NCBI GenBank assembly: GCA_964447685.1 | Contig: CAYUTI010000002.1 | Location: 13,966 to 77,965, forward strand | Direction: 5' to 3' | DNA length: 64,000 nt | From: Candidatus Woesearchaeota archaeon | Lineage (GTDB): Archaea > Nanobdellota > Nanobdellia > SCGC-AAA011-G17 > CAYUTI01 | In this document: positions 22,314-38,157 of the stretch, one piece after another | Position numbering within the stretch: the first letter of the stretch is position 1 | Layout: each line of letters starts with the position of its first letter | The notes under the pieces: model-generated | Seen by the model: the letters and a program-made list of their open reading frames with translations, nothing else | The model's database searches: none | What the model was told of the DNA's origin: nothing | Position numbers and translations under genes: made by a program

Positions 22314-22820
22314 CTATTTATCTTGGTTAGAGGGATATCCTTTTTCATTTAATAAATCTATGTAATGCTTTGAAATTTCAAAAGCAGGAGGCAACCAATT
22401 TTTAAAATTTCTAAGTGATTGAGTCAGATTTTTTAAGATATCTATAGACTCATTCATAGTTAAATGACCTTTGATAATTCTATTTATTTGAAATATAATA
22501 TCACTAATATCTCTATTTTTAATACTGTTGTCATTCCAATTATAAATCATTTCTGTATAGGCATTTACAAAATTAATAAAAGCCGGTGTTAAGGGAACCA
22601 TAAAAACTGATCTTCTAACTTCGGATAATGATGTTAAAAGTTTATTAATAAAATCATCATTAGTTTTTACATTTTTATCTTCAGTTAGATCCTTAATATT
22701 TTTTAAAATTTCATGATATGTATAATTTATAATGCTTAATATTTCTTTACCGAAAAATTCATATCTAAATTTATCATCAAGAAAAATTTCAATATGTTTT
22801 TTAGCTTCATTGAATTCCAT
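22314..22820 (-). CDS. helical hypothetical protein, 168 aa (possible accessory or recognition factor of the rSAM cassette)
   Basis: Position only; no motif. Confidence 0.45.
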   Translation of the reverse strand: MEFNEAKKHIEIFLDDKFRYEFFGKEILSIINYTYHEILKNIKDLTEDKNVKTNDDFINKLLTSLSEVRRSVFMVPLTPAFINFVNAYTEMIYNWNDNSIKNRDISDIIFQINRIIKGHLTMNESIDILKNLTQSLRNFKNWLPPAFEISKHYIDLLNEKGYPSNQDK

Positions 22821-22822
22821 AT

Positions 22823-24175
22823 CTATCTCCTATTTGCTTTTAAATATTTTTCATAAATTATTAAATTATCTTTTACGTCTTTATTTATAAGATTATAAAT
22901 ATGAGTTAATGATCCAACTTCATCCATAGAATCTATTATGGCACTTATTTTACCATGTTCCATCATACACATACTTGGTATTGGTGTAAAAATATCACCC
23001 ATAGTTTCATACTGACTTCCTAAACAACCACCTCCGCATAAATATTTAATCCCGCAATCTTGACAGTATGGGAAATTTTTTGTATCAGTAGTATAAATTG
23101 CATATAGAAGTTCAGTGTTGAGGGGATCTATACTAACTATTTGATCATACATTTCAACAAATTTAAAACTGTTAAATTGAGGATAACTAAGCCTATGGCA
23201 TGGGTTAACTGTTAAATCACTTAATCTTATTTGTATATCAGATTGAATACTACATCCTATTCCACGTCCAATAGATGAAAAACAAGAAAATATATTTATA
23301 GGATTTTTAGCTGCCCATCTTGCATAACCAATTTCATCTAAACCTGTTTTTTTCTTTGTCCATTTTACAAAGAAATTAATGAATTTTTGAAAATGTTTAA
23401 CATGATCAATAGTCCATCCATTATTTCTAACTTCTAATAAATAAATATTATCCCAAGGAAGACCATATTTATCAAACATTTCTTGGAACCATAACCAGTT
23501 ATCAATCCATTTATCAATATTATCATAATATACCATTGGATGAAAACCGCAGCCGATATCTTTAGAAAATTTGAAAATAGCATCATAGTCTCTAACATGA
23601 CCGCCTTTTTGAAACGGCCTATTTTCATCACAAAATTTTCCATCAATGCTTGCACTTAAACCTATTCTAAACCTATGCTCTAATGCTTTATTTATTAATC
23701 TGATAACTCTTTGTTTCTTTTCTTCATTTGTACAGAAATTCATATTAGTAGGAATTGAAATACGTCTATAACGAACATCGTGTTTAATAAACCATTCAAC
23801 TAATATCTCTAATACCTCAAATCCAACTTCTGAAGAAAAAATTTCACCTGAGAATAAATCAAAATTTGGAAACATGTTATATTTAGCAAACCATTCCAAA
23901 AGAAGTTTTAAATTCTTAATAACATTTCTTTTTCTATAAATAGATGTAGGATATAATCCAAGTTCTCCATGAGGTCCAATATTACTAAATCTTGAATAGT
24001 AACAGTATTTACATTTTAAATCACAAGATGGTGATATTTGAAGTTCAACACTACTGGCATTATGTCCTTGCATTAATTGTTCATGTTTACCCCAACCACT
24101 AAATACTTTAAAGAATGTTCTGTTTAAAAAACGATGTAACAAATGTGTTCGTTCTTCTTTATATAAATCTATCAT
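22823..24175 (-). CDS. radical SAM enzyme with C-terminal SPASM domain (450 aa)
   Basis: CDLKCKYC (CX3CX2C) near the N-terminus. C-terminal CQDCGIKYLCGGGC (Cx2Cx5Cx3C) plus further Cys typical of SPASM auxiliary clusters. Confidence 0.85.
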   Translation of the reverse strand: MIDLYKEERTHLLHRFLNRTFFKVFSGWGKHEQLMQGHNASSVELQISPSCDLKCKYCYYSRFSNIGPHGELGLYPTSIYRKRNVIKNLKLLLEWFAKYNMFPNFDLFSGEIFSSEVGFEVLEILVEWFIKHDVRYRRISIPTNMNFCTNEEKKQRVIRLINKALEHRFRIGLSASIDGKFCDENRPFQKGGHVRDYDAIFKFSKDIGCGFHPMVYYDNIDKWIDNWLWFQEMFDKYGLPWDNIYLLEVRNNGWTIDHVKHFQKFINFFVKWTKKKTGLDEIGYARWAAKNPINIFSCFSSIGRGIGCSIQSDIQIRLSDLTVNPCHRLSYPQFNSFKFVEMYDQIVSIDPLNTELLYAIYTTDTKNFPYCQDCGIKYLCGGGCLGSQYETMGDIFTPIPSMCMMEHGKISAIIDSMDEVGSLTHIYNLINKDVKDNLIIYEKYLKANRR

Positions 24176-24185
24176 TCTTATCTCC

Positions 24186-25571
24186 CTATCGTAACATTGT
24201 TTCTCGTATCAAACAATTTCTAAGCAACTTTTCAAAAAAACCATTACCGAAAAGTTTAAATAAAGAAGAGTGTTGAATAAAAATACTTCCACCTGTTGAG
24301 ATATTTTCAATTGGACAAGAAATACATCCTAAGATAAAATAATTTAATAACCTAGCCATTTCTTCGTTTTTATATATGCTAGATAATTGTTCTGCTTGTG
24401 CCATTAATCTTATAGTAGTAATACCATAACTTTCTTTAAATTTAGTAAAATCATTATAACCTCTCATAAGCATGAGAAGTCTATCTATATCGAGTTGATT
24501 ATTACTATCAGCACAATAATTTTTTGCTAAATTATTTATAGTAGCCTCGTCCGTTTTTATTAAATCCCCCAAACACTTCTTACTAGTTTCTACATAGTCT
24601 TTATTGGTTATGTAAAAAACTCTATGACACGGAACTACATTATGATTTTCATTAACTGAATATGTACCATCACCGCTACTACAACTAAACATTCTATGTT
24701 TAGTAGACCATTCTTTTATAATAGGTAATCTATTTGTAAGACGATGAAAATAAGCTGAATTAGGTCTTATATTATTAAATAAAAAACCGCTTAATCTTAA
24801 CTGAAAATCATAAAGTTTTGACATTGCAAAACCATCTTCTTGAGTAAAGTCAGTTGGAAGAACTATTGTCGGATCACATGAATAGGATATATTTATTTTA
24901 TTATTAACATTTGTTTCCTTGCATTTAGTGAAAAATTCATCAAAAAATCTATAATAACTTTCAATAACTGAAAAATTATAACCCATCTTCTTTATATCTT
25001 CCATAGAGGCAGTTGGTTTAAAATGCATTATAAAAGTAAAAACAGTTCCGTTTTTATTATTTACAGAATTTAAAAGTCTTATTACTTCAAGACAATTTTT
25101 AATTATTTTTTCAGTAGAACCTTCACCTCTATTCTTATCTGTTATCCATTTAGGGCCATCTATACTAACTTGTAAATCAAGCTCTATTTGTCTATCTGTA
25201 GCAGGAAAATTTTCAACAAATTTAGGTATAATGTCACTTCCAACCATATAATTAGATGAAAAACTAATTTTATTAAAATTTGGAAATAATTTTAACGCCT
25301 CTTCATAAAATTCAGGAATATGATCTAAAAGAGTTAGTGTTGGTTCAGTTCCCCAATGAGAAAAAATTGTTAAATTTTTACCAAACAACTCATAAATTTT
25401 TTTAAGAGTTGATCCATCTTTAATACCCTGTTTTATTTTCTTATGAAAATCCATAAGAAAAGTATTATCTTTAGGTATATAACAATATTTACATTTTAAA
25501 TTGCACCAACCAGCACTAAACATTTCAGATGCTTGAGGAGGTGTATTCTTACTAATACTTAAAGTTGACAT
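24186..25571 (-). CDS. radical SAM enzyme with SPASM/twitch-like C-terminal Cys motifs (461 aa)
   Basis: CNLKCKYC CX3CX2C motif; C-terminal Cys residues (CSSGDG...PCHRV; GCISCP). Confidence 0.85.
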   Translation of the reverse strand: MSTLSISKNTPPQASEMFSAGWCNLKCKYCYIPKDNTFLMDFHKKIKQGIKDGSTLKKIYELFGKNLTIFSHWGTEPTLTLLDHIPEFYEEALKLFPNFNKISFSSNYMVGSDIIPKFVENFPATDRQIELDLQVSIDGPKWITDKNRGEGSTEKIIKNCLEVIRLLNSVNNKNGTVFTFIMHFKPTASMEDIKKMGYNFSVIESYYRFFDEFFTKCKETNVNNKINISYSCDPTIVLPTDFTQEDGFAMSKLYDFQLRLSGFLFNNIRPNSAYFHRLTNRLPIIKEWSTKHRMFSCSSGDGTYSVNENHNVVPCHRVFYITNKDYVETSKKCLGDLIKTDEATINNLAKNYCADSNNQLDIDRLLMLMRGYNDFTKFKESYGITTIRLMAQAEQLSSIYKNEEMARLLNYFILGCISCPIENISTGGSIFIQHSSLFKLFGNGFFEKLLRNCLIRETMLR

Positions 25572-25596
25572 AGTATAATTCCTTATCTACTACTTT

Positions 25597-25971
25597 CTAC
25601 TTACCATCTGGTTTACATTTTCTACATTTACCTATTATATAATCGTCATATTCTAAGTTTATATTAAAATTTACTTCACTTATAAATAATTCACCACAAT
25701 CACACTCACCATAAAGATAGTATTTATTACCATCTGTGAATAGTCCTCTATTGCTATCATATTTTATATTTTCAATAAGCTCCCAACACGGAGAAAGTCT
25801 GGTATTAAATTTTATAGCATCAGGATTCTCTCTATTTATACATGTAGGAGTATCACTATTACAAAAAGTATAACAACCGCTGGAATCGTATGTTGACACT
25901 CTATTGAAATCAGACTCATTAATATCTATTTCTTTTCTGTCTACTTCTTTACTATTCCATTTAAAAGCCAT
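25597..25971 (-). CDS. Cys-rich MAFKW-family protein P3 (124 aa, 9 Cys)
   Basis: N-terminus MAFKWNSKE. Flanks the rSAM pair on the side opposite P1 and P2. Confidence 0.55.
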   Translation of the reverse strand: MAFKWNSKEVDRKEIDINESDFNRVSTYDSSGCYTFCNSDTPTCINRENPDAIKFNTRLSPCWELIENIKYDSNRGLFTDGNKYYLYGECDCGELFISEVNFNINLEYDDYIIGKCRKCKPDGK

Positions 25972-28123: not shown

Positions 28124-28145
28124 AGGGAGAGGAAAACCTCTCCCT
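28124..28145 (-). terminator. rho-independent terminator (agggagagg-aaaa-cctctccct) downstream of the 642-aa fibre gene
   Basis: 9-bp GC-rich stem with tetraloop, followed on the - strand by gattttattaatttt. Confidence 0.55.
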
Positions 28146-28166: not shown

Positions 28167-30095
28167 TTATAAAGTTACAGTTCGGTCTGGATCAAAGTTG
28201 ATATCAACATTACCACCAGCAGCAGCATTTTTAGCAGATCCTATTTTCTGAGAAACATGTCCCTGAGTAGTAGGAGCATTATCAGTGATTTTACCAGCTT
28301 CAATTGTAGATATGAATAGCTGCTCACCTGCACCAATGTTAGCATTACTATCATGTAGCACATCAGTAATAAGACCATCACCTGCACGAACAGTAACAGT
28401 TGTATCACCATCATGAATAATTACACCAAATGCTGGCATTGTTGCCTCTGCGTTAGCTTTAGCAAGACCAACAGTATTAGCAATAGTTGTTTGATAAACA
28501 ACCATACCTGTTCTATCAGCCGTAGAAGCTGCCATTGTATAAATCTCACCTTCAGGAAGTACAGTACCTGCAAGAGATTCAGCACGTTGAGCAATTGACT
28601 CTGACCTATCAGCAGTACTATCCCCAACAGTTGCAATACTCTGGCTTAATCTTGCAATGCTAATTGTAACCTCTGCCTCACTATCTACTATAGTTGCATA
28701 ACTAAGTGCTAGGTCAGCAATACTATTATCAAGTGCTCCCTGTGATTCTGCTCTACGAGCAATACTGATTCCAAGTTCAGCTTCGCTATCAACTATAGTA
28801 GCATAGCTGTTTGCTCTTACTGCAATTGATTTTGCTATAACACCAAGAGAATCAGCTTCACTAGCTGCATCCTCACCAAGTCTGGCAAGAGATTGACCTC
28901 GTTCACCTATTGATGTAGCTTCACTTGCTCTATCCTCACCTATTCTTGCGATACTAACTGCGATTTCAGCTTCGCTGTCTACTACCGCTGCATAGGATTC
29001 AATTATATTTGCAATGGAATTATCTACGGCTGCCTGAGATTCATTTGCAGTCGCCATTGAACGAGCTTCGCTAACTGCTTCACTAGCATTATCTGCATAA
29101 AGGTCAGCTTCACTTCTTGCTTCAGATGCTTCATCTTCTGCTACTCTTGCAATACTAATTGCATCATCTGCTTCTGATTCTGCTAGAAGTGCAATACTTC
29201 TACCTCGTTGACCTATAGAAGCAGCCTCAGAAATATCTGAGGTCTCAACAGCTACCCTAGCAAGAGATGCTGCACGTTCTGCTATAGAAGATGCTTCAGA
29301 TGCCCTATTTTCTGCAATTTCTGCAATACTGTCAGCTACAAATGCAAGACTAGCTGCTTCACTTAGGTCAGCAGTTCTGGCAAGTGAAAGTGCAAGATGC
29401 CCCATTGATTCAGCAATATCAGAAATACTATTATCAAGTGTTCCTTGTGATTCTGCTCTACGAGCAATGCTTATTCCAAGTTCAGCTTCACTATCAACTA
29501 TTGTTGCATAAGATTCAGCCAATACAGCGATTGAACGAGCTTCACTTGATTTTTCAAGTCTGGCAAGAGATTGACCTCGTTCACCTATTGATGTAGCTTC
29601 ACTTGCTCTACCGATTGCAAGATCAGCAAGACTGTTATCAAGTACTCCCTGTGATTCTGCTTTACGAGCAATTGAAATTGCAAGTTCAGCTTCACTATCA
29701 ACTATGGTAGCTAAACTGTTTGCCCTATCAGCAATACTATTGTCAAGTAGTGCCTGAGATGCATTTAATGTAGCAATTGATCTTGCTTCACTTGCTGCAT
29801 CTGTTCCAGCAGTCTCTGCTGTTCGTGCAAGAGATTCTCCTCTTATGCCAATACTAGTTGCCTCCGAAACACGACCATTAGCAAGATCAGCAACACTATC
29901 TGCAACTACTGCAAAACTTTCTGCCCTATCTGCAATACTGTCTCCTACAATTCCATACGATTGACCTAAAACAGCAATACTTCTAGCAAGTGCTGCTTCA
30001 GATTGACCAGGAGTATTATCTCCAGGTTGAACTACTTTAAGATTTCCTTGATACAATGCCAAAGGTGTAACAGTTGCCATAGTAATTTCCTCCAA
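28167..30095 (-). CDS. Ala/Ser-rich repetitive fibre (shaft) protein, 642 aa
   Basis: Many SIA(R)RAES / DSEAELAISIAR repeats. N-domain shared with 27189-27710; C-domain shared with 30233-30640. Confidence 0.7.
   Translation of the reverse strand: MEEITMATVTPLALYQGNLKVVQPGDNTPGQSEAALARSIAVLGQSYGIVGDSIADRAESFAVVADSVADLANGRVSEATSIGIRGESLARTAETAGTDAASEARSIATLNASQALLDNSIADRANSLATIVDSEAELAISIARKAESQGVLDNSLADLAIGRASEATSIGERGQSLARLEKSSEARSIAVLAESYATIVDSEAELGISIARRAESQGTLDNSISDIAESMGHLALSLARTADLSEAASLAFVADSIAEIAENRASEASSIAERAASLARVAVETSDISEAASIGQRGRSIALLAESEADDAISIARVAEDEASEARSEADLYADNASEAVSEARSMATANESQAAVDNSIANIIESYAAVVDSEAEIAVSIARIGEDRASEATSIGERGQSLARLGEDAASEADSLGVIAKSIAVRANSYATIVDSEAELGISIARRAESQGALDNSIADLALSYATIVDSEAEVTISIARLSQSIATVGDSTADRSESIAQRAESLAGTVLPEGEIYTMAASTADRTGMVVYQTTIANTVGLAKANAEATMPAFGVIIHDGDTTVTVRAGDGLITDVLHDSNANIGAGEQLFISTIEAGKITDNAPTTQGHVSQKIGSAKNAAAGGNVDINFDPDRTVTL
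28400..29900. repeat. dispersed/tandem approx. 80-bp near-identical coding repeats (e.g. 28721-28800, 29431-29510, 29631-29710)
   Basis: Direct comparison of these sequence lines; a further copy sits at about 27440 in the neighbouring gene. Confidence 0.7.
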
Positions 30096-30232
30096 TTTGA
30101 ATTAAAAAAATAATTATTACCAACACCAACATCAACAGCTCTGTCTTCTATATTCGTATTTCTGTTATATATCTATCTACTATGGCTTACAAAATATAAT
30201 TATCTACTATTGTTAAAAGATTTTCTGAATGG

Positions 30233-30640
30233 CTAAAGTTCAATTACTTCACTAATGAGTAAATTGATCTCTATTTTTCCATTTGGTTTTACTTTAACCG
30301 CTGATCCAAGTTTCAAGCATACACCAGAACTTGGGCTTATATTAGTAACTCTTCCAGATTCGAGTGAACTTAAAAATACTGAATTTCCAAAACTGAAACT
30401 AATTCCAGTTTCTGGAACAACATCAACATCACTTCCTGAAAAGTCAACTGAAACACTATTTCCATAATCTCGTTTAATGACTCCGATAGCGTTTGCTGTT
30501 AAAACATCTCCAGCATTTGCTAAACCTACTCTATCGGCATGAGAAGATACTAAATAAACAACAAGACCTCCTCTTCCACTTCCAGACGCTATACCATAAA
30601 TATGAGTTGAATCTTCAATTACTGATCTGATTCGAGGCAT
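30233..30640 (-). CDS. stand-alone paralogue of the fibre C-terminal (tip) domain, 135 aa
   Basis: GGLVVYLVSSHADRVGLANAGDVLTANAIGVI aligns with GMVVYQTTIANTVGLAKANAEATMPAFGVI at the C-terminus of the 642-aa fibre. Confidence 0.5.
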   Translation of the reverse strand: MPRIRSVIEDSTHIYGIASGSGRGGLVVYLVSSHADRVGLANAGDVLTANAIGVIKRDYGNSVSVDFSGSDVDVVPETGISFSFGNSVFLSSLESGRVTNISPSSGVCLKLGSAVKVKPNGKIEINLLISEVIEL

Positions 30641-30721
30641 ATTTACCTCCTTGCTATTAGATTTTTTGCTTTAAGTCGTTTTCCATTTCTATCAAAAATA
30701 AACTATGCAGATTTTTGAGCT

Positions 30722-31606
30722 TTATCTAAATTTGGATACATGATTATTTAAAAGCTGATATCGTTTCTGTTTTAGTAAGTCAATATTTCTTTGTTTTCTA
30801 AGTTTGAATTTTTCTAAAGACTCATCATTCATTTGCTGCGTTGAAACACCTCCATGATGAATAACATAAGTCTTTAAATCTAAAGCTAACTTATAACCTG
30901 GATCAGGATGGCGATAATGCTGAAGTCTAAAACAAAAGTCGTCGTCATCTCCTCCCATATCAAAGTCTTCATCAATTAATCCTACTTTATTAAAAACTTC
31001 TATAGGAAAACATACAGCAAAGAAAGCTAACATTCCTGACATAACCATGTAATTCTTATTAAGCTCTGCAAGCTTGTTATTGATTAAATTAAGGTTCAAG
31101 TTATCAAACCGAGGCACTGTTTTAAATCGTTCAGCTACGTTGTTAATATACTGCCAGTCTCTTTCACAGCTATTTAGTGGCCCAACAGCTCCTATTTGTT
31201 CATCACTTTGAAGCACTCCAACCATATTATCGATCCAGTTGTTACCAACTTCGATATCATCATTTAAAAAGAACACATAATCATAATCACGTTCTAAAAT
31301 AAGCTGTAAACAATGATTAAGGCCACCAGCCCAAAACACGTTTTTCTCACTCGGAATAAGAACAGTGTTATAAAGTTTATTACTTTTAGCGTAAAGTTGA
31401 CCATGTTCATCAGGTTTGTTATCAAATAGAAATAGATGCCAATCAGCATGATTTTTTGATCTGTATATACTTAATAAAGTTTTATATAAGTGGCCACTAT
31501 TATAAGTAACACAAATTAGTGCTACTTTAACATTCTTAAGTTTTTCAATCCTAATTTCTTCATACATAATAGAGTTATCTTTACATGATAAACCTATAGA
31601 TGTCAT
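30722..31606 (-). CDS. family-2 glycosyltransferase (GT-A fold, DxD motif FLNDDIEV)
   Basis: ICVTYNSGHLY...LFDNKPDE...FLNDD pattern typical of GT2. Confidence 0.7.
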   Translation of the reverse strand: MTSIGLSCKDNSIMYEEIRIEKLKNVKVALICVTYNSGHLYKTLLSIYRSKNHADWHLFLFDNKPDEHGQLYAKSNKLYNTVLIPSEKNVFWAGGLNHCLQLILERDYDYVFFLNDDIEVGNNWIDNMVGVLQSDEQIGAVGPLNSCERDWQYINNVAERFKTVPRFDNLNLNLINNKLAELNKNYMVMSGMLAFFAVCFPIEVFNKVGLIDEDFDMGGDDDDFCFRLQHYRHPDPGYKLALDLKTYVIHHGGVSTQQMNDESLEKFKLRKQRNIDLLKQKRYQLLNNHVSKFR

Positions 31607-31667
31607 AATAATACCTCCATATGGTATTTTCTTATTAATAAACTGTTAAGTTTTTATTTTTAACTTA

Positions 31668-32636
31668 TTATAGAGAATTGTATAAGCTGATGAATTTCTG
31701 TACTGCTTTTCTCATACAGAAGGTCTCTCTGGCATAATCAACGTTAAGTTGGATCTGTTTATCTGGATTTGTTTTCAAATCATCCCATGCTTGAGAAACA
31801 GCGTTAACAATTGAAGGTGTATGCCTGTTACACACATATTTAGTATGTTCATCTGTATAGGCAACAACGCTGCATCCAAAAGCCATGGCTTCCATCGAAT
31901 CTCTTGAAAATATTCCGTTATAATTACTATTAAAGCTTATATCAGCTCCAGCAAGAAACATTCTCAAATCGCTAAACTTGTGTTCATAGTGTTCAAGGCT
32001 ATTGCTTATTTGATTAGATTTTAAAACTAAATTGTCCCAACTTGAAGCAGAAGCTACGCTTATTCCGAAAACGTTAAGTCTTGCAGTAGGAATCTTTTTT
32101 CTTATATCAGGAATAGCCCAAAATAGAGGAGCAGGATTCTTATTAATCCTTATATTTGATGTTGAAATTATAGCTGGTCTAAATCGATATTGATATGGTT
32201 GGATCGCTGTTATATCATATTTATCCATATCAATTGCATCTGGAATATATACAACGTTATCGCCATAATTTTTCATGATTTGATAATCGTATTTTGTAAT
32301 AGCAACTATCTTTTTAAATGTTTTCATGAATTCAATATGCATATCAAACTTTTTAGATTTACCACTGCTTTCGATATCATGAAGAACTAAGATCTCAGAT
32401 GTTCCATGAAGGATAGCTAAGTTTTTCTTTTTAGAAAGAAGATGCATTAGCTTTGCAGGAATAGATCTATGAAGTACCCATACATCACATTCATGAGCAG
32501 CGCTCCATGGTTTAGCTACTACTTCCCTGTCACGATACCTATTAGGATCTGGATTTTCTATATCACTAATAAATAAATATGGTTCAAGTCCTGCTTTTTT
32601 TTCCTGCCTACACATGTCTATGCAATATTCGTGCAA
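31668..32636 (-). CDS. GT-B fold (GT4-like) glycosyltransferase, 322 aa
   Basis: FSRDSMEAMAFGCSVVAY matches the E-x7-E / EAMAxGxPV motif. The first codon is TTG; the true start may be the internal ATG at about 32615. Confidence 0.6.
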   Translation of the reverse strand: MHEYCIDMCRQEKKAGLEPYLFISDIENPDPNRYRDREVVAKPWSAAHECDVWVLHRSIPAKLMHLLSKKKNLAILHGTSEILVLHDIESSGKSKKFDMHIEFMKTFKKIVAITKYDYQIMKNYGDNVVYIPDAIDMDKYDITAIQPYQYRFRPAIISTSNIRINKNPAPLFWAIPDIRKKIPTARLNVFGISVASASSWDNLVLKSNQISNSLEHYEHKFSDLRMFLAGADISFNSNYNGIFSRDSMEAMAFGCSVVAYTDEHTKYVCNRHTPSIVNAVSQAWDDLKTNPDKQIQLNVDYARETFCMRKAVQKFISLYNSL

Positions 32637-32664
32637 ACCGCTGAGATTGGGTCGATTTTGTTAC

Positions 32665-32672
32665 TATTTATA
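32665..32672 (-). promoter_or_regulatory. T4 late-promoter-like TATAAATA upstream of the GT gene
   Basis: Exact octamer on the - strand, about 28 nt upstream of the start. Confidence 0.3.
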
Positions 32673-33050
32673 TATAAATAGGGTAAGTGATTTCTCCTTA
32701 CCTCTTTATGTTTCCATAAAGTCCAGACTATATCATCAACCTTAAAAATGTTTTAAAGGCTGTCGGGCGCTACCTATAGGAATCACTCCCTATAAGTGAA
32801 AAACTCTTCATAGTTTTAAAATTAAACCTTAGAAGTTTTTTCTAAGTCGTTGAACCTTTCCACTAATTTATTAGTAGACTTGGCTGCTGATTACCCAATT
32901 CTTTAACTTTTCAAACATTCACGCTCATCGTTTCCAACCACGTTGTAGTGTAAAGACTCTCAGGGCTTTCCAGCAATTCACCCGATTTGCAAACCAATAT
33001 TACTATTGATTGGGGTTATATATTAGCCCATAAACTAAAATGTGCAATTT

Positions 33051-33365
33051 TCATATTATCTCCTTTATACTTTCTACTTTATTAAAATAAGATAAATCAC
33101 TACTATCTAAAAACCACCATTCACAATATTTTCTATTTTGATTAGTCATAGTATGACAACTTCTACAAAGAGTAATTAAATTATTTTTATTATTATTGTT
33201 CTTAATGTAATCAATATGATGTACGGAATTTCCACAATCACCGCAAATCTGACAAATGTAATTATCTCTTTCCCTAATATAAGTTTTAATTAAATAAAAC
33301 TCTTTAGGATATTTTTCAAAAGAAGTACCTCCATTCCAATTAGGGTTTCCTTCTAAAGAATACAT
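33051..33365 (-). CDS. HNH homing endonuclease (104 aa)
   Basis: CQICGDCGNSVHHIDYIKNNNNKNNLITLCRSCH is a complete HNH motif. Confidence 0.75.
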   Translation of the reverse strand: MYSLEGNPNWNGGTSFEKYPKEFYLIKTYIRERDNYICQICGDCGNSVHHIDYIKNNNNKNNLITLCRSCHTMTNQNRKYCEWWFLDSSDLSYFNKVESIKEII

Positions 33366-33502
33366 ATTAGAAAAATAAAGTTTTTTACACTTATTACTAC
33401 ATGTCTTAACAGTATTCTTTTGATTTGGAAAAACTTCAATTCCAGAATTACAAACTATACAACCCTTTTAAAGATTGAGATAATTTATTTCTAAATTCGG
33501 GG

Positions 33503-33601
33503 TTACTTGCTTTCTCTCTGTTTTGATCTTGAATCAGTTACTTTGTTACCACATTTACAAAAATACCTAATCTTACCATCAATTATTTTCTTTATTGCCA
33601 T
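33503..33601 (-). pseudogene. 32-aa ORF (MAIKKIIDGKIRYFCKCGNKV...) plus a downstream in-frame Cys-rich stretch; possible decayed N-terminal zinc-finger portion of the HNH gene
   Basis: Frames checked by hand: they cannot be joined by a single shift, which suggests decay rather than programmed frameshifting. Confidence 0.25.
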
Positions 33602-33696
33602 AGTAATCTCCGCTAAAGATTAAATATAAATAAAGAAGTTAGACTGAATATTAGCGGTATTCAATCAAGACCGGCCAAAGTCCTGTCCTCCTATAT

Positions 33697-34194
33697 TTAT
33701 TTTATGCGTTCCCATCCATTTATTCTATTCTTATTATCGATATCATAACCGCTGATACCTTTGTATTCCCAAAGTTGACCGTTAGCAAGTTTGACAATCT
33801 CACCATAACCAGCACTATGTTTTGGTTTAACTTTGCTAATATCGTTGTGGCTAACTTTATGGCTGTAATTAGTCGGAACAATTTTTCCAGACTTACCGGG
33901 TTTGGAAGCGATACCACCACCAAAAATAGTATTAATATCACGCATCCTGATTTTCTTTTTAGTGAGTGGAATCTCTTTTCCATCAATAACGACAATTATC
34001 TTAGCACCGAAATCTGAAATTTCATCTGCTTTAAAACTGATCTTATCAGATAATCCATTATCGATAGCATCTGTTAGTTTGTTAACAGCAAGAGCGTACC
34101 ATGCAGGGCCATCCATATACCTGTTATTCAAACTCCTGTTAACGGTTTTCATATCATGCTTGATAACATTAGATAGAATCTTAACATATTTCAT
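33697..34194 (-). CDS. MKYV-family protein, 165 aa
   Basis: N-terminus MKYVKILSN. Confidence 0.5.
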   Translation of the reverse strand: MKYVKILSNVIKHDMKTVNRSLNNRYMDGPAWYALAVNKLTDAIDNGLSDKISFKADEISDFGAKIIVVIDGKEIPLTKKKIRMRDINTIFGGGIASKPGKSGKIVPTNYSHKVSHNDISKVKPKHSAGYGEIVKLANGQLWEYKGISGYDIDNKNRINGWERIK

Positions 34195-34204
34195 TATTAC
34201 CTCA

Positions 34205-34621
34205 TTAAGCTGAATATTTTAACCATGCCAAAGCTTCATTCTTGCTATCGAAAAATGTTATTACGTTTATCTTTCCTTGTGAAACAACAATATACCTATT
34301 TTTAATTGGTTTAATATTGCCACCCCAAATATCAAATTTTTCAACAGCGGTATCCTGCTTACTATAAACAGGAACTTCAAAAACTGATAAATTTCCCTTC
34401 TTTTTTAAAGGAGTATGATTATTAGCATAATTAACTAAACCCTTTGTCAAAGAGTTATCTTGATTTTTGTCACCTTGTTTATCAGTTATATAAGTTGATC
34501 TAACAGGTACTGCAATACCACTTCCTGGACTGTAACTAATCCAGAAAGTAATATTTTGGAAAAATATTTTATCTCCTTTATCCCCTGTAGCAGAATCAAC
34601 TTTAACTTTTACGTATTTCAT
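34205..34621 (-). CDS. MKYV-family protein, 138 aa
   Basis: N-terminus MKYVKVKVD. Confidence 0.5.
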   Translation of the reverse strand: MKYVKVKVDSATGDKGDKIFFQNITFWISYSPGSGIAVPVRSTYITDKQGDKNQDNSLTKGLVNYANNHTPLKKKGNLSVFEVPVYSKQDTAVEKFDIWGGNIKPIKNRYIVVSQGKINVITFFDSKNEALAWLKYSA

Positions 34622-34649
34622 TGTAACCTCACAATTTGAATTTTAAGTT

Positions 34650-34832
34650 TTAAAGTGCTGCAATACTTTCCCATTCCAAAGCCCAATCCTGATTTTCATC
34701 TCGTGTAATACCATAAATCTTGTGTTCACCAGTACTTGGAATTGATCTAATTGCATTACTGCTAACTTCTCTTGCAATTGATTCCACCTCTGGAAAAGCA
34801 ATAGTGTTATCTGAAAAATATCGAAAACTCAT
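34650..34832 (-). CDS. hypothetical protein, 60 aa
   Basis: ORF track. Confidence 0.35.
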   Translation of the reverse strand: MSFRYFSDNTIAFPEVESIAREVSSNAIRSIPSTGEHKIYGITRDENQDWALEWESIAAL

Positions 34833-34861
34833 AATGTTCTCCTTGATTTATTATTTAGTAA

Positions 34862-37171
34862 CTACAATATTTGCATATTGTTTATGTTAAGATCTGTAAT
34901 AGTCTTAATAGAATTAATCATTTCATTCTTTGTGCTGTCATTTTCTGAAACAACAAAAGATAAACTATTAAAATAAATTTCTAACATAAACTTTTTATTC
35001 TGTAAGATAATAAATTGATTATAAGTACCATCATTTCCATAGCTGATTGCATAGTCATTTAATAAAGGTTTAAAAAGATCTTTAAATTCATTCTCAGTAA
35101 ACTCTTTATTATGATAGGCTGAATCCCAAAGATTTCCATCTGGTTTAGCAAGAGGTGTTGTTAATACTGCAATTTTTGGATTCATATCTTTAATTTTGAG
35201 AACAGCATTTTCAGGATTTGTAAAATGCTCAATAACCTGACTCAATAACAGACAATCTAAATTATGGTTATTTGGCAAATCAAAGAAGCTTTGAATTGTC
35301 ATTTCTATTTTTGTATCAGGTGGAAGAGGTAATGATTTTACAACTTCAGTAATCATTTTTTCAGCAAGAGTAACTGCAAATTTGTTTGTTTCAATTATAT
35401 TTACATTGAAACCTTTTCTTGCCAGCTTAAAAGCAATAGCTCCGTCACCACCACCGATATCTGCAATATTTTTGAAATCATGTATCTCTCTAAGCTTTTC
35501 AAATATGTTAATTAAACTATCAACATAGTTATTGTATATAGCATCTTTACTGTTCCAGTGATAAGGCCCTAATCGCTCATATTTATCAAATGTTTTACTG
35601 GTTTTAACTTCGCTTAAATTACTTGAACCAACAGCAATATTATTCTCAGCAAGATAAGTTCTCAGAGATAATGCCAAGTTTGCAACCGAAGCTTTAATAT
35701 CACCGATTTCGTTTTTAATAAAAGCTTGACCTTGTTCTTTAGTAAGAGTTCCTGTTTTAACTGCGTTATCAGCTTTATTTTTATTTACGATTTCATTAAG
35801 TATTGATATAGTTTCTTCTTTAGTAAGTTCAGTCTTAACTTCAGAAGGTTTAACTACTTCGTTCTTAACAATCTCACCAGCAATATAAGATTTATTGTTT
35901 TTAATAGCTTCATTTATTTTATCATCAGAAGGTGACGCTGATGTTTTAACTTCTATACTATTTACTTTACTTTGTACAGGAATAGAAGTAGTGCTTGCAA
36001 CAGGCTCTGGTTTAGGAACAGGTATTTGAATCTGATTTCTTTGTTTATTTATAGATGCTTCAATTTCAACAGCCTTAACATTATCAGTTTCAAGTTTATT
36101 TTTAATGATACTATTAAAACTAACAATTGATTTTATAACAGCCTCATTATCAATGGAATTAGATTGAATTTTTTCTAATTGATTATTCATAAAATCTATC
36201 CATCGATCAGTGTAATTGTCCCAGTTAAGTTTTGAAACTTCAGTACGCCCCATTTTTCCAAAAGCAAGTCTTATCTTATCATTATTTTTATATAGTAAAA
36301 TTCTTTTAATAAGAAGATCACTGCTCAGATCAGGACGTTTCATAACTAATGCTGTCTTGTGATGAAACGCAAAATCTTGAGTTCCTATATCTGTACAAAT
36401 TACAGGAAGCTCACAAGCCATAGCTTCAGCAGCGCAATTTTGCCAACCTGCTAATGTCTCACAACTAATATAACAATTATAGCTACTATAAATATTTTTC
36501 ATATCCTCTTGAGGAATATTAATATGGCTTGCTACATCGTTGTTTAGATTGATTAAAGGTTCTGTTGCAATATATCCAAATTTGATATCTTTATAATCTT
36601 TAGAAAGTTTGTTACAGGCATCGATTATAATATTGAGGTTTTTCCAAGGCCTATTACGTCCTTGAAATAATACTTTAAACTTATTAAACTCTCTTGCAGT
36701 ATTAACCTTTCTAAACATATCAAGATTAATAGCACCTGGAATAGTATGCCAGTTTAAAGGTATTTCAACATCTTTTAGATGTTCAGGATTTTGAGCTTCC
36801 CAACCAGAGCCATTGCCTACAACAACTATTTTTGGATCATAGATAACCTTTCCATATTGACCGATTATATAATTACTCCAATATGGAAAAATAATGTTAA
36901 TAATTTTTAATGGTGCCTTGCTAAGATAAATATTTTTACTTAGGCCAGCATCACCACAAATACAAACATCAGCATCATAGTCTTTTAAATTGATAAGTGG
37001 CTGTATTGATTTTTGTGGAAAATTTATTTCTCTTACGAAATCTGTTACTAATGGGTTTTGTGCGTGAATTACAACTTCACAGTCTTTATCAATAAGACGT
37101 TTCCCAAATTCTAAATATCTGCGTACTCCACCATATTTTTTAAAGTGTGGTAGTAAAATTGATATTTTCAT
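34862..37171 (-). CDS. bifunctional GT-B glycosyltransferase (N-terminal) / class-I SAM-dependent methyltransferase (C-terminal), 769 aa
   Basis: AAEAMACELPVICTDIG is a GT4-type motif. The C-terminal IADIGGGDGAIAFKLA is methyltransferase motif I. ATG and aggag RBS confirmed. Confidence 0.75.
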   Translation of the reverse strand: MKISILLPHFKKYGGVRRYLEFGKRLIDKDCEVVIHAQNPLVTDFVREINFPQKSIQPLINLKDYDADVCICGDAGLSKNIYLSKAPLKIINIIFPYWSNYIIGQYGKVIYDPKIVVVGNGSGWEAQNPEHLKDVEIPLNWHTIPGAINLDMFRKVNTAREFNKFKVLFQGRNRPWKNLNIIIDACNKLSKDYKDIKFGYIATEPLINLNNDVASHINIPQEDMKNIYSSYNCYISCETLAGWQNCAAEAMACELPVICTDIGTQDFAFHHKTALVMKRPDLSSDLLIKRILLYKNNDKIRLAFGKMGRTEVSKLNWDNYTDRWIDFMNNQLEKIQSNSIDNEAVIKSIVSFNSIIKNKLETDNVKAVEIEASINKQRNQIQIPVPKPEPVASTTSIPVQSKVNSIEVKTSASPSDDKINEAIKNNKSYIAGEIVKNEVVKPSEVKTELTKEETISILNEIVNKNKADNAVKTGTLTKEQGQAFIKNEIGDIKASVANLALSLRTYLAENNIAVGSSNLSEVKTSKTFDKYERLGPYHWNSKDAIYNNYVDSLINIFEKLREIHDFKNIADIGGGDGAIAFKLARKGFNVNIIETNKFAVTLAEKMITEVVKSLPLPPDTKIEMTIQSFFDLPNNHNLDCLLLSQVIEHFTNPENAVLKIKDMNPKIAVLTTPLAKPDGNLWDSAYHNKEFTENEFKDLFKPLLNDYAISYGNDGTYNQFIILQNKKFMLEIYFNSLSFVVSENDSTKNEMINSIKTITDLNINNMQIL

Positions 37172-37204
37172 TCAATATCTCCTGTTTTACTTTAGATGTT
37201 TTTA

Positions 37205-37570
37205 TTAAACAGCTATGTTATAATTTTTTATTCCAGATTTGGTGTACTTAGCACCATTCTTTAAAAGCCAATCAACTTTTTCTTCAAAAGAAGGATTGCC
37301 TTTCTTACTCCATGTATTAAAATCTACTTTTTTATTAAACTGTTTAAACTGATTTAAAAGAGAATAAACAAATTCTTTTTTTAGCCGATCACTTGAAGTA
37401 TCTTTAAGCTTAGAATTTTTAAACTCTTTCCAAGTAGCCTCCCTCAAATCTGATTTAGATTTATCATCTGTGGGATAATAAAAAAATAGACCTAATCTAC
37501 CTGTTTTTGAATCTTGATATATTCCTTTAGATTCAGGTTGATCATCAGAAAGTATTTTAACATATTTCAT
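37205..37570 (-). CDS. MKYV-family protein, 121 aa
   Basis: N-terminus MKYVKILSD; aaggagg RBS. Confidence 0.5.
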   Translation of the reverse strand: MKYVKILSDDQPESKGIYQDSKTGRLGLFFYYPTDDKSKSDLREATWKEFKNSKLKDTSSDRLKKEFVYSLLNQFKQFNKKVDFNTWSKKGNPSFEEKVDWLLKNGAKYTKSGIKNYNIAV

Positions 37571-37586
37571 TATTAATCCTCCTTTT

Positions 37587-37922
37587 TTAAGGAACTGTTA
37601 TAGTCTTTAATTGTCCATCAAAAGTAAATGATATGCTATTAGCTGCATTACTCGTTCTAACTCGAATTGTCTGATCATTTGTCAAAGCAATTGGAATTTG
37701 AAAACCATCATTAGCTGGAACATTTTTATCTTTAAATTTCCATTCTTCAATACCAGCAGCACCTGGATGGAATGTAACAGCTAAACTTGCTTTCTGAATA
37801 ATTGAAGTTACATTACAAATCGTAACCAAACCTATTGCTGTTTGTCCAATACCTGGAGCATAAAATTCTTCTTCTGTCGTAACAGTTGGACAGATAGTTG
37901 CTATTAATCCATAATAAAGCAT
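37587..37922 (-). CDS. hypothetical protein, 111 aa
   Basis: ORF track. Confidence 0.45.
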   Translation of the reverse strand: MLYYGLIATICPTVTTEEEFYAPGIGQTAIGLVTICNVTSIIQKASLAVTFHPGAAGIEEWKFKDKNVPANDGFQIPIALTNDQTIRVRTSNAANSISFTFDGQLKTITVP

Positions 37923-37971
37923 ATTAACCTCTTACTATTTACTGTTATCATTGATGTTAATCTTAACGTTA

Positions 37972-38157
37972 TTAACTCGTGAACAGACTGAAAAAATAAT
38001 TCTCTTGTTCTAAATCTTCCAACACTTTACTTTTTAAAGTAGTCATAGTGACTTTTTTACTTTCTGGAAGTGAAACGTCATCAATCATAAACACGTCATC
38101 ACTTTCAATATCGTTCTGACTTATTTCTGGAAGATCTGTAATTTTAATATATGGCAT
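37972..38157 (-). CDS. hypothetical acidic protein, 61 aa
   Basis: ORF track. Confidence 0.35.
   Translation of the reverse strand: MPYIKITDLPEISQNDIESDDVFMIDDVSLPESKKVTMTTLKSKVLEDLEQENYFFSLFTS

What the first reader, a model, noticed from the sequence alone, without database searches (positions are those of the whole stretch)
30722..37171. Three glycosyltransferases, one fused to a SAM-methyltransferase, next to the fibre genes
There is a GT2 (DxD) gene, a GT4-like GT-B gene, and a 769-aa GT-B protein with a C-terminal class-I methyltransferase (DIGGGDG). In a phage structural region this suggests synthesis of a methylated glycan. The target could be a virion or fibre protein, DNA hypermodification, or host surface polysaccharide (seroconversion or superinfection exclusion). 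A GT-MTase fusion is uncommon.
Basis: partly seen in the sequence, partly recalled or inferred. Interest (0 to 1): 0.6.

Follow-up and report, generated by a model that had tools for sequence, protein, structure and literature searches.

The report
Phage fibre-linked glycosylation cassette with intron
An uncultured T4-like phage carries, among its tail-fibre genes, a conserved set of three sugar-adding enzymes (one fused to a sugar-methylating domain, one interrupted by a self-splicing intron); it most likely decorates the phage's own serine/alanine-rich fibres with a small methyl-capped glycan, which has not been described for phage fibres.

Summary
Profile searches and high-confidence structure models confirm three enzymes:
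- a GT2 (30722-31606);
- a divergent GT4-type GT-B enzyme;
- a 769-aa GT4-type GT-B enzyme fused, through a disordered ~190-aa linker, to a class I SAM methyltransferase whose nearest solved relative is the Hen1 ribose 2'-O-methyltransferase.

A 373-nt group I intron (Rfam 106.5 bits) separates a 10-codon exon 1 (33054-33025) from exon 2. A decayed free-standing HNH gene abuts exon 1. All 28 orthologues lack the intron.

The fusion and the GT4-like protein co-occur on every contig long enough to show both, and only on uncultured-phage contigs. GT-MT, GT4-like, GT2, a 135-aa knob protein and a long Ser/Ala-rich fibre keep the same order in three related phage loci. In a separate lineage group (43-56 % G+C), a stand-alone methyltransferase and the GT4-like gene are again flanked by Ser/Ala-rich fibre genes.

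None of the enzymes has a membrane segment. No flippase, polymerase or sugar-nucleotide gene was detected.

Best reading (confidence ~0.5): cytoplasmic glycosylation of virion fibre proteins with O-methyl capping. This is analogous, not homologous, to the mycobacteriophage cluster O cassette and to chlorovirus A064R. Host-glycan remodelling is the main rival. The exact splice junction is unresolved.

The parts
34862..37171 (-). Gene for the 769-aa GT-B / methyltransferase fusion
   Evidence: Pfam GT1 and Methyltransf_11 hits. Family of 17 proteins with invariant G14 G15, E238, E249, D571, G573, G575. AF2 model with two confident domains.
36161..37171 (-). GT4-type GT-B domain of the fusion (aa 1-337)
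   Evidence: pLDDT mostly 75-95 (two low blocks, about 60, at aa 121-140). Foldseek hits to MshA, PimA, BshA, WaaG and PglA at E 1e-12 to 1e-14, TMt 0.65-0.71.
35600..36160 (-). Low-complexity, length-variable linker (aa 338-524)
   Evidence: pLDDT below 50 over most of 339-523. The region is gapped and variable across the family.
34988..35599 (-). Class I SAM methyltransferase domain, Hen1-like (aa 525-728); motif I at 35441-35461
   Evidence: Pfam. Domain profile against PDB: Hen1 methyltransferase domain 3jwi/3jwg at E 5e-10 over the whole domain. NCBIfam UbiG-like O-methyltransferase at E 8e-8.
34650..34832 (-). 60-aa 'mini-fibre' ORF (ESIARE fibre repeat plus a conserved C-terminal IPSTGEHKIYGITRDENQDW motif)
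   Evidence: It follows the GT(-MT) gene in the window, L001 (103 aa), L002 (64 aa) and L139 (176 aa).
33697..34621 (-). Two small ORFs that start MKYVK (138 and 165 aa); part of an insertion relative to L002
   Evidence: Absent between the mini-fibre ORF and the GT4-like gene in L002.
33051..33601 (-). Free-standing HNH homing-endonuclease gene, apparently frameshifted; the intact part is 33051-33365
   Evidence: Pfam HNH at E 7e-5 and many PHROG HNH families. N-terminal pieces lie in two other frames. Its stop codon overlaps the exon-1 ATG (ATGA).
33025..33054 (-). Exon 1 of the GT4-like gene (MKIAHFSLWA)
   Evidence: Identical to the first 10 residues of the intronless L002 orthologue.
32652..33024 (-). 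Group I intron, 373 nt, no ORF (boundaries +/-1 nt)
   Evidence: Rfam RF00028: 106.5 bits against a gathering score of 50, E 1.2e-26, full model 1-253, at 32704-33042. Boundaries come from orthologue alignment. The same sequence occurs in two other assemblies.
31668..32651 (-). Exon 2 of the GT4-like gene (PNLSGLHEYC... to the stop codon)
   Evidence: GT-B fold confirmed on the orthologue model.
30722..31606 (-). GT2 (GT-A) glycosyltransferase gene
   Evidence: Pfam PF00535. NCBIfam rhamnosyltransferase-like at E 8e-11, below the cut-off. 49 homologues including bacterial ones.
30233..30640 (-). 135-aa protein homologous to the C-terminal knob of the fibre
   Evidence: BLASTP against fibre residues 517-634, E 8e-14. 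Conserved after GT2 in L001 and L002.
28167..30080 (-). Long fibre with Ser/Ala-rich (D/E)SEAE..SIAR repeats and a C-terminal knob (likely start ATG at 30080)
   Evidence: 32 % Ser+Ala. Orthologues in L001-L003.
28124..28145 (-). Terminator-like hairpin closing the putative GT-to-fibre transcription unit
   Evidence: 9-bp stem with 6 G-C pairs followed by a T-rich tail (GATTTTATTA). No comparable site lies between 37171 and 28167 on the minus strand.

Best explanation
This is a phage-encoded cassette for glycosylating the phage's own virion proteins, and it acts in the host cytoplasm. Two retaining-type GT-B enzymes and one inverting-type GT2 use host nucleotide sugars. They build a short oligosaccharide on phage structural proteins before or during assembly. 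The most likely acceptors are Ser (or Thr) residues of the Ser/Ala-rich fibre proteins encoded in and around the cassette: the 642-aa fibre, the 173-aa fibre, the 60-aa mini-fibre and perhaps the 135-aa knob protein. The Hen1-like methyltransferase domain is tethered to the first enzyme by a flexible linker. It would O-methylate a hydroxyl of the terminal sugar and so cap the glycan.

The glycan would alter fibre surface properties, for example protease or antibody shielding, solubility or receptor specificity.

[quoted passage not shown] Expression of that enzyme therefore depends on RNA splicing.

Shown here: the domain identities and folds, the intron, the synteny and co-occurrence, the absence of membrane segments, and purifying selection.

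Inferred: the acceptor, the order of action, O-methylation of a sugar, and the biological role.
For: 1. Enzyme identities.
2. All three enzymes are predicted soluble. The maximum 19-residue hydropathy is about 1.0 for the two GT-B proteins. The GT2 peak lies in a core strand. No flippase, polymerase, ligase or sugar-nucleotide gene was found among the ORFs scanned across the 64-kb window.
3. The order GT-MT, GT4-like, GT2, knob protein, long Ser/Ala fibre is kept in L001 (209-kb contig) and L002; in L003 the same order holds except that the separate knob ORF is absent, and the fusion's methyltransferase domain is degenerate there. Enzyme identities fall to 33-40 %. L138 and L139 have a fibre-repeat ORF between the GT genes.
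4. In a separate lineage group (43-56 % G+C, loci L140-L147), a stand-alone methyltransferase, a 52-56 % Ser+Ala fibre-like ORF, the GT4-like gene and a further Ser/Ala fibre sit in a row. That last fibre has a C1q domain or the same FDPD-type knob.
5. Twelve of the 17 contigs carrying the fusion also carry the GT4-like gene. The other five are 5.5 kb or shorter.
6. The genes share one strand with the fibre genes, are tightly spaced, and the first strong terminator lies after the fibre gene.
7. pN is far below pS for all three enzymes.
8. Precedents: cluster O mycobacteriophages have three tandem GT genes plus an O-methyltransferase gene that modify capsid and tail tube (PMC11600133, citing Freeman et al. 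2023). PBCV-1 A064R fuses two GT domains to a sugar 2-O-methyltransferase that acts on the capsid glycan (PMC7019647).
Against: - There is no biochemical or proteomic evidence; the case rests on gene neighbourhood.
- Fibre-proximal regions of large phages are also hot spots for accessory genes, so linkage could reflect genome plasticity.
- Cellular relatives of the enzymes sit in polysaccharide/LPS-type contexts. The GT domain lies next to GalU-like and MsbA-like genes. The GT2 lies next to a GT4-UDP-galactopyranose mutase fusion and an ABC transporter.
- L139 adds a GT9/GT8 fusion typical of LPS core synthesis.
- Soluble GT4 and GT2 enzymes with a methyl-capping enzyme are also the signature of ABC-transporter-dependent O-antigen synthesis (own knowledge).
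- In the window itself, the GT4-like mRNA may not be restored in frame by canonical splicing (note 4).
Confidence: 0.5

Rival explanations
1. Host-surface glycan remodelling. The soluble enzymes act at the cytoplasmic face of the membrane on undecaprenyl-linked O-antigen, capsule or LPS-core intermediates. They add sugars and a terminating methyl cap. Infected cells would then display an altered receptor, giving superinfection exclusion or less loss of progeny on debris.
For: Bacterial relatives lie in LPS/polysaccharide contexts. A GT9/GT8 fusion occurs in L139. The GT2 resembles rhamnosyl- and galactofuranosyl-transferases of cell-wall glycans. Marine cyanomyoviruses carry many such genes, which are read as cell-surface modifiers (PMC12801897). 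Linking receptor-modifying genes to receptor-binding genes is a known theme in seroconverting phages (own knowledge).
Against: No membrane anchor, flippase, priming transferase or transporter was found. The genes behave as a conserved core of the fibre module, interleaved with fibre-repeat ORFs in three lineages, rather than as sporadic morons. The fusion and the GT4-like family were found only on phage-like contigs.
Confidence: 0.22
2. DNA hypermodification. The enzymes glycosylate, and then methylate, a modified base in phage DNA to evade restriction.
For: Phage GT-B enzymes do glycosylate DNA (T4 alpha/beta-GT; Pyle et al. 2024, as cited in PMC12619734). L001 has a dNMP kinase and a methyltransferase about 9 kb upstream.
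Against: The cassette lies inside the tail/fibre module, not the nucleotide-metabolism module. No base-hydroxymethylase-type gene was found among the ORFs scanned in the window. The top 50 structural matches listed for each model are GT4 enzymes acting on sugars, lipids, small molecules or proteins, with no DNA glucosyltransferase among them. The association with Ser/Ala-rich fibre ORFs would be unexplained.
Confidence: 0.05
3. The cassette glycosylates other virion or non-virion acceptors (capsid, tail tube, a small molecule or a lipid), and its position next to the fibre genes is incidental.
For: In mycobacteriophages the known acceptors are capsid and tail tube, not fibres (PMC11600133). 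In one relative the module follows a ribonucleotide reductase gene rather than baseplate genes.
Against: Even there it is followed by a 629-aa ORF at the position where the long fibre gene lies in the other loci (no DNA or sequence was available to check this). The fibre-repeat ORFs stay interleaved with the enzymes across lineages.
Confidence: 0.15
4. In this particular phage the cassette is partly broken. Canonical intron excision gives a frameshifted GT4-like mRNA, so only two of the three enzymes work.
For: U33025 (-1) plus omega-G32653 joins GCU+ACCC, a +1 frameshift. The sequence is identical in three assemblies.
Against: Exon 2 is intact over 327 codons and 82 % identical to L002, with pN 0.13 against pS 0.78. 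An in-frame junction exists with omega-G and C(-1), possibly through a C.A wobble (note 4).
Confidence: 0.25

Closest known systems
Virion glycosylation cassette of cluster O mycobacteriophages (Corndog-like): three tandem GT genes downstream of an O-methyltransferase gene
   Same: A phage-encoded set of three glycosyltransferases plus a methyltransferase. The enzymes are soluble. Their products modify virion proteins (PMC11600133, citing Freeman et al. 2023).
   Different: No detectable homology: tblastn of the fusion and of the GT4-like protein against 50,697 phage records found nothing. Here the methyltransferase is fused to a GT, and the cassette is embedded among fibre genes of a T4-like myovirus. 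The known mycobacteriophage acceptors are capsid and tail tube. The acceptor here is untested.
Chlorovirus PBCV-1 A064R (two rhamnosyltransferase domains plus a C-terminal 2-O-methyltransferase domain)
   Same: A virus-encoded fusion of GT and sugar O-methyltransferase domains that extends and methyl-caps a glycan on a structural protein, in the cytoplasm and independently of host machinery (PMC7019647).
   Different: A064R belongs to a eukaryotic giant virus and acts on an N-linked capsid glycan. It was not compared by sequence or fold here. The present protein has one GT4-type GT-B domain, a long disordered linker and a Hen1-like methyltransferase.
Bacterial Hen1 RNA 3'-terminal ribose 2'-O-methyltransferase (PDB 3jwg/3jwi/3jwh)
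   Same: Best solved-structure match of the methyltransferase domain, over its whole length (E 5e-10). It includes the VIEH motif and a downstream H..E. Hen1 methylates a sugar hydroxyl in a metal-dependent way (own knowledge).
   Different: Similarity is distant (E 5e-10; identity not computed). The first acidic ligand of Hen1's E-x-x-E-H is Gln here. There is no RNA-binding or Pnkp context. The domain is fused to a GT.
ABC-transporter-dependent O-antigen / S-layer glycan assembly with methyl capping (WbdA-C with WbdD; Geobacillus WsaE)
   Same: Soluble GT4/GT2 enzymes plus a methyltransferase that terminates the chain. WbdD gives a weak hit (E 9e-4).
   Different: No undecaprenyl-priming enzyme, transporter or ligase is present. 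The setting is a phage structural module. The comparison otherwise rests on my own knowledge.
Collaborative homing of ORF-less group I introns with free-standing endonucleases (cyanophage S-PM2 psbA intron with F-CphI; T4 mobE with the nrdB intron)
   Same: [quoted passage not shown]
   Different: The host gene is an accessory glycosyltransferase. The HNH gene looks frameshifted. Its target site is unknown. The splice junction is non-canonical on paper.
Other viral GT-methyltransferase fusions in BFVD (A0A6J5QUJ2 from an uncultured Caudovirales phage; CroV E3T531)
   Same: Foldseek aligns both domains of the model to these proteins (E 1e-19 and 4e-16).
   Different: Only 12-13 % identity. Their functions are unknown.

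Membership tests
GT4-type retaining GT-B glycosyltransferase (N-domain of the fusion) | Pfam Glycos_transf_1 above the gathering score | tested here: met
   43.8 bits against 26.4.
GT4-type retaining GT-B glycosyltransferase (N-domain of the fusion) | Two-Rossmann-domain GT-B fold | tested here: met
   AF2 domain pLDDT mostly 75-95 (two low blocks of about 60). Foldseek hits to MshA, PimA, BshA and WaaG at E 1e-12 to 1e-14.
GT4-type retaining GT-B glycosyltransferase (N-domain of the fusion) | Canonical E-x7-E motif | tested here: not met
   The invariant residues are E238 and E249, spaced by 10 residues (ETLAGWQNCAAEA), so this is a variant motif.
GT4-type GT-B glycosyltransferase (intron-containing gene) | Pfam GT1-type domain above the gathering score | tested here: inconclusive
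   Glyco_trans_1_4 27.3 against 27 (just met). Glycos_transf_1 22.1 against 26.4 (not met). No NCBIfam hit.
GT4-type GT-B glycosyltransferase (intron-containing gene) | GT-B fold | tested here: met
   Orthologue P0020 model: pLDDT 93.3, pTM 0.90. Foldseek hits to MshA, PimA and BshA at E 1e-14 to 1e-12, TM 0.72-0.77.
GT4-type GT-B glycosyltransferase (intron-containing gene) | Canonical E-x7-E motif | tested here: not met
   Only the second Glu (E263, SRDSMEA) is invariant. The position eight residues upstream is an invariant Gly.
GT2 (GT-A) glycosyltransferase | Pfam PF00535 above the gathering score, and a DxD motif | tested here: met
   32 bits against 23.3. FLNDD is conserved in L001-L003 orthologues.
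Rhamnosyltransferase subfamily TIGR01556 | Score above the curated cut-off | tested here: not met
   41.6 bits against 200.55. This is a resemblance only.
Class I SAM-dependent methyltransferase | Rossmann-like fold with motif I (D/E)xGxGxG, and a Pfam hit above cut-off | tested here: met
   Methyltransf_11 23.6 bits against 21.2. Of D571-G573-G575-D576-G577, only G575 is invariant across all 17 fusion proteins; the other four are conserved in at least 90 % of them, and the methyltransferase-degenerate P0017 lacks the motif. The AF2 model is confident over this domain (mean pLDDT mostly 80-94 for aa 530-725); no fold match to a methyltransferase was obtained.
Hen1-type metal-dependent 2'-O-methyltransferase | E-x-x-E-H ... 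H metal-binding residues | tested here: inconclusive
   The alignment to 3jwi places QVIEH against EVIEH, and H687/E690 against H..E. The first Glu is Gln. Metal dependence was not testable.
Group I intron (Rfam RF00028) | Covariance-model score above the gathering score over the full model | tested here: met
   106.5 bits against 50, model positions 1-253 of 253, E 1.2e-26.
Group I intron (Rfam RF00028) | U at the last exon position (U.G wobble in P1) and a terminal omega-G, giving an in-frame ligation | tested here: inconclusive
   Both nucleotides exist (U33025, G32653). Using both gives a +1 frameshift. In-frame junctions need C(-1) or omega-A.
Group I intron (Rfam RF00028) | Self-splicing activity | not testable with these tools
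   Needs in-vitro transcription and splicing, or RT-PCR.
Mycobacteriophage-type virion glycosylation cassette | Homology to the cluster O/F GT and methyltransferase proteins | tested here: not met
   tblastn of the fusion (E <= 1e-5) and the GT4-like protein (E <= 1e-3) against the INPHARED phage records gave no match.
Mycobacteriophage-type virion glycosylation cassette | Glycans demonstrated on virion proteins | not testable with these tools
   Requires mass spectrometry of virions or of co-expressed proteins.
GtrABC-type seroconversion module | Membrane proteins GtrA (flippase), GtrB (bactoprenol GT2 with TM helices) and GtrC (GT-C) | tested here: not met
   No 19-residue segment of TM-like hydropathy in the two GT-B proteins (about 1.0). 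The GT2 peak (1.98) lies in its catalytic core. No small TM ORFs were seen in the module.
Phage DNA glycosyltransferases (T4 alpha/beta-GT type) | Structural similarity to DNA GTs, and linkage to base-hydroxymethylation genes | tested here: not met
   None of the top 50 matches listed for each model is a DNA glucosyltransferase. No such genes were found among the ORFs scanned in the 64-kb window. The rest of the ~175-kb genome was not seen.

The most novel reading that the evidence does not exclude
A conserved, previously undescribed system in which tailed phages O-glycosylate and methyl-cap their own Ser/Ala-rich tail fibres. Its core is a divergent GT4-like enzyme plus a Hen1-like sugar O-methyltransferase, shared by at least three phage lineages from 25 % to 56 % G+C. 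This would be the first fibre-directed glycosylation machinery in bacteriophages. In this genome one enzyme is additionally gated by a group I intron with a non-canonical (C.A or omega-A) splice junction.
Probability: 0.4. Interest if true: 0.75.

Novelty: new variant of a known kind. Interest (0 to 1): 0.58.

Why it matters
Phage-encoded glycosylation of virions is known so far from mycobacteriophage capsids and tail tubes, where it blunts antibody recognition. A cassette aimed at the receptor-binding fibres would add a new layer to host-range and immune-evasion biology. It would matter for fibre engineering and for expressing phage fibres in other hosts.

The cassette also supplies:
- a compact, soluble GT / sugar-O-methyltransferase fusion family with no characterised member;
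- a divergent GT4-like family that standard profiles barely detect;
- a natural case of a group I intron in an accessory glycosyltransferase gene, whose junction does not fit the U(-1)/omega-G rule on paper.

That junction can be tested directly with a simple splicing assay.

Tried and rejected
- Megablast of 30000-38000 against the phage collection found nothing. tblastn of the fusion (E <= 1e-5) and of the GT4-like protein (E <= 1e-3) also found nothing. No isolated phage carries this cassette.
- A single-protein scan of viral contigs found nothing. The alignment-based scan was needed.
I therefore could not count fibres of this type that lack the enzymes.
- The genome-collection scan returned only GT-domain relatives at 24-32 % identity, in Aminicenantes and other MAGs, and no fusion. 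Their GalU/MsbA neighbourhood is suggestive but not transferable.
- Sigma-70-like promoters occur at chance level (63 against 61 expected). The T4 late-promoter motif TATAAATA is enriched in the window but not positioned before genes. No promoter claim is made.
- Pfam, PHROG and NCBIfam scans of the scanned ORFs found no sugar-nucleotide, flippase or base-modification gene.
- Intron P1 models:
  - The Rfam alignment of P1 is poor.
  - A U.G-containing helix (GGGCUAAUAU with AUAUUGGUUU) competes with a GNRA-capped hairpin and is weaker (-4.1 against -6.8 kcal/mol).
  - The closest related introns, found by their core sequence in 52 viral contigs, have unrelated P1/P2 regions and gave no covariation for this question.
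- Assembly error at the junction is rejected. Two other assemblies are identical there.
- Accession searches in the paper library found no source description.

Full report
**Setting.** The window has low G+C (~30 %). From about 1.7 kb onward, essentially all ORFs of 120 aa or more lie on the minus strand. It encodes a tail sheath, baseplate proteins (gp25/P2-I-like, hub), a head-tail connector and a large helicase. The sheath is 49-53 % identical to those of distant T4-like phages such as Vibrio GR11A, Rhizobium RHph_TM and Thermus phiLo. There is no nucleotide-level match to any of 50,697 deposited phage genomes. The source is therefore an uncultured T4-like myovirus; its own proteins are recorded on a 174,909-bp contig.

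**Observation check.**
- The GT2 gene (30722-31606) passes Pfam PF00535. It has FLNDD and GGDDDDFCFR motifs, which are conserved in orthologues.
- The 769-aa protein (34862-37171) passes Glycos_transf_1 and Methyltransf_11. It carries DIGGGDG at residues 571-577.
- Its AlphaFold model has a largely confident GT-B domain (aa 1-337) and a confident methyltransferase domain (about aa 530-725). A disordered linker joins them.
- The GT domain matches GT4 enzymes (MshA, PimA, BshA, WaaG, PglA) at E 1e-12 to 1e-14.
- A profile of the methyltransferase domain finds the bacterial Hen1 2'-O-methyltransferase domain as the best solved relative (E 5e-10). The match covers the whole domain, including VIEH and a downstream H..E. 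UbiG-type O-methyltransferases are the best NCBIfam match.

**The middle gene is split.**
- The ORF 31668-32636 starts at a TTG and lacks the usual GT-B N-terminus.
- Directly upstream, Rfam finds a complete group I intron (32704-33042, 106.5 bits, E 1.2e-26).
- An ATG at 33054 opens MKIAHFSLWA, which is followed by a stop codon.
- The intronless orthologue in L002 begins MKIAHFSLWAPNLSGLHEYC. That is exactly exon 1 plus the start of exon 2. L001, L003 and L004 agree.
- All 28 other family members are uninterrupted proteins, 27 of them full-length (336-358 aa) and one a 226-aa fragment. The window's copy was called as a 315-aa fragment.
- The gene is therefore exon 1 (33054-33025), a 373-nt intron, and exon 2 (32651-31668).
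- A model of the 81 % identical orthologue is very confident (pLDDT 93) and is a GT-B fold of GT4 type. Sequence profiles barely detect it.

**Unresolved junction.**
- A canonical U(-1) (U33025) joined after a canonical omega-G (G32653) gives GCU+ACCC, a +1 frameshift.
- In-frame ligation needs either C33026 with omega-G, or U33025 with omega-A.
- The C33026 option could use a C.A wobble in a GGGC/ACCC P1, followed by a GUAA-capped hairpin.
- Two further assemblies from different sequencing runs have the same sequence. That omega-G is the terminal nucleotide is stated in PMC3984707.

**HNH gene.** An HNH ORF (33051-33365) ends on the exon-1 ATG. Its N-terminal parts lie in other frames, so the gene looks decayed. 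The layout recalls collaborative homing of ORF-less introns with free-standing endonucleases (PMC3984707, PMC2790892, PMC6083498).

**Family and distribution.**
- The fusion has 17 relatives of 582-769 aa; 16 have both domains, and P0017 (L003) has a degenerate methyltransferase domain. None carries a viral or more specific annotation: two have generic machine names and the rest are unnamed.
- An exhaustive HMM search of 1.84 billion cluster representatives finds only about 13 end-to-end matches.
- Cellular genomes contain only the GT domain, at 24-32 % identity.
- Twelve of the 17 fusion contigs also carry the GT4-like gene. The other five are 5.5 kb or shorter.
- The GT2 has a wider family that includes bacterial genes.
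- Against the L002 orthologues, non-synonymous change is far below synonymous change for all three enzymes. For the GT4-like gene, pN is 0.13 and pS is 0.78.

**Neighbourhood.**
- In the window, L001 and L002, the order is GT-MT, small ORFs, GT4-like, GT2, a ~135-aa protein, then a 640-810-aa fibre. L003 keeps the same order but its GT2 is followed directly by a 537-aa fibre without a separate knob ORF.
- The fibre is built of Ser/Ala-rich (D/E)SEAE..SIAR repeats with a C-terminal knob.
- The 135-aa protein is homologous to that knob (E 8e-14).
- A small 'mini-fibre' ORF, with the same repeat and a conserved C-terminal motif, follows the GT(-MT) gene in the window, L001, L002 and L139.
- L138 and L139 have an unfused GT, a fibre-repeat ORF, extra GT2 and GT9/GT8 genes, the GT4-like gene and the GT2.
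- One relative adds a second GT1 and a Methyltransf_24 gene.

**A separate lineage group.** In loci L140-L147 (43-56 % G+C), with a Phage_capsid_3 capsid gene in the one locus scanned (L142), the order is as follows:
- a stand-alone methyltransferase (27 % identical to the fused domain);
- a 52-56 % Ser+Ala fibre-like ORF;
- the GT4-like gene (36 % identical);
- another Ser/Ala-rich fibre with a C1q domain or the same FDPD-type knob;
- in loci L140-L142, also a collagen/Mtd_N fibre.

The constant core is thus the GT4-like enzyme, a methyltransferase and Ser/Ala-rich fibre proteins.

**Mechanistic reading.**
- The GT-B proteins and the module's small ORFs have no membrane-like segment; the GT2's only hydrophobic peak lies in its catalytic core.
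- No flippase, polymerase, priming transferase or sugar-nucleotide gene was found among the ORFs scanned in the window.
- The first strong terminator-like hairpin on the coding strand lies just after the fibre gene.
- This fits cytoplasmic, protein-directed glycosylation using host sugar nucleotides, with the Hen1-like domain methylating a sugar hydroxyl as a cap.
- The closest functional precedents are the cluster O mycobacteriophage cassette of three GTs plus an O-methyltransferase, which modifies capsid and tail tube (PMC11600133), and chlorovirus A064R (PMC7019647).
- Neither precedent is detectably homologous, so this is an analogue, not a member.
- Foldseek shows that GT-methyltransferase fusions recur in other uncultured phages and in CroV.

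**Rivals.**
- Host glycan remodelling is supported by the polysaccharide contexts of bacterial relatives, by the LPS-type GT9/GT8 fusion in L139, and by the general resemblance to methyl-capped O-antigen synthesis.
- It lacks any membrane or export component, and it does not explain the interleaved fibre-repeat ORFs.
- DNA modification has little support.
- Nothing here was tested biochemically, so I put the fibre/virion reading at about 0.5.

**Verdict.** The finding is real and more structured than first described. It is a rare, conserved, fibre-linked glycosylation and methylation cassette. One gene is interrupted by a group I intron, next to a decaying HNH gene. It is a new variant of a known kind (phage-encoded virion glycosylation). 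The acceptor is untested and the splice junction is odd.

Noticed in passing
window 21463-25971 (-): Two radical SAM/SPASM peptide-maturase-like genes (24186-25571, 22823-24175) give their best NCBIfam hits to PapB, SCIFF and anSME-type maturases at E ~1e-10, all below cut-off. They are flanked by three small ORFs that start MAF(T/K)W; all three are Cys-rich, two of them mainly in the C-terminal part (25597-25971, 21856-22302, 21463-21840). The block lies directly downstream of the fibre genes. The two radical SAM genes and the ORF preceding them are conserved in L002. It may be a RiPP-like cross-linking system for small virion proteins.
   Followed up: partly
window 51219, 42082, 40879, 37570, 34621, 34194 (starts, - strand): Six otherwise unrelated ORFs begin MKYVK, with nearly identical DNA (ATGAAATA(T/C)GT(A/T/G)AA). 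Two of them, together with the HNH remnants, form a ~1.6-kb insertion relative to L002 inside the GT cassette. This may be a shared gene-start cassette or a recombination scar.
   Followed up: partly
window 33051-33601 (-): The HNH endonuclease gene appears broken into three frames: MAIKKIIDGKIRYFCKCGNK..., then NPEFRNKLSQSLKG..., then the intact 104-aa HNH ORF. One SNP (33123) distinguishes the Logan SRR14492170 assembly.
   Followed up: partly
window 32992-33011 (-): An 8-bp hairpin capped by a GUAA (GNRA) tetraloop near the 5' end of the intron is likely P2. It competes with the only possible U.G-containing P1 helix.
   Followed up: yes
window 28167-30095 (-): The fibre gene has markedly higher G+C (~41 %) than its surroundings (~30 %). 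Its listed TTG start is probably wrong. An ATG at 30080 follows a GGAGG, giving MATVTPLALYQGNLK, the N-terminus shared by the other fibres.
   Followed up: partly
window 30722-31606 (-): The window's GT2 is ~30 aa longer at the N-terminus than its ~257-262-aa homologues. The true start may be the internal Met before EEIRIEKLKNVKVALICVTYN.
   Followed up: no
L001 12579-14342: In the 209-kb relative, a 587-aa DUF7487 protein with many CxxC pairs and repeated KYGV motifs sits between the GT-MT and GT4-like genes, next to an extra stand-alone methyltransferase (14477-15058). It is probably another mobile endonuclease-like insertion at the same spot where the window has the HNH gene.
   Followed up: no
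locus of P0031 (JGI 3300075153, 47.9-kb contig; no DNA held): In this relative the GT cassette follows a ribonucleotide reductase gene that contains an intein. The cassette there has an extra 628-aa GT1 and a Methyltransf_24 gene.
   Followed up: no
window 721-1599 (+): This is the only sizeable plus-strand ORF. It has a weak AP2 DNA-binding domain hit (E 3e-5, below cut-off), as seen in some homing endonucleases.
   Followed up: no
window 18933-20552 (-): A 539-aa protein with a long Gly-rich segment (GGGSGASSGAIG...GGGGIGGGGGAG) lies in the structural region. It has no family match.
   Followed up: no
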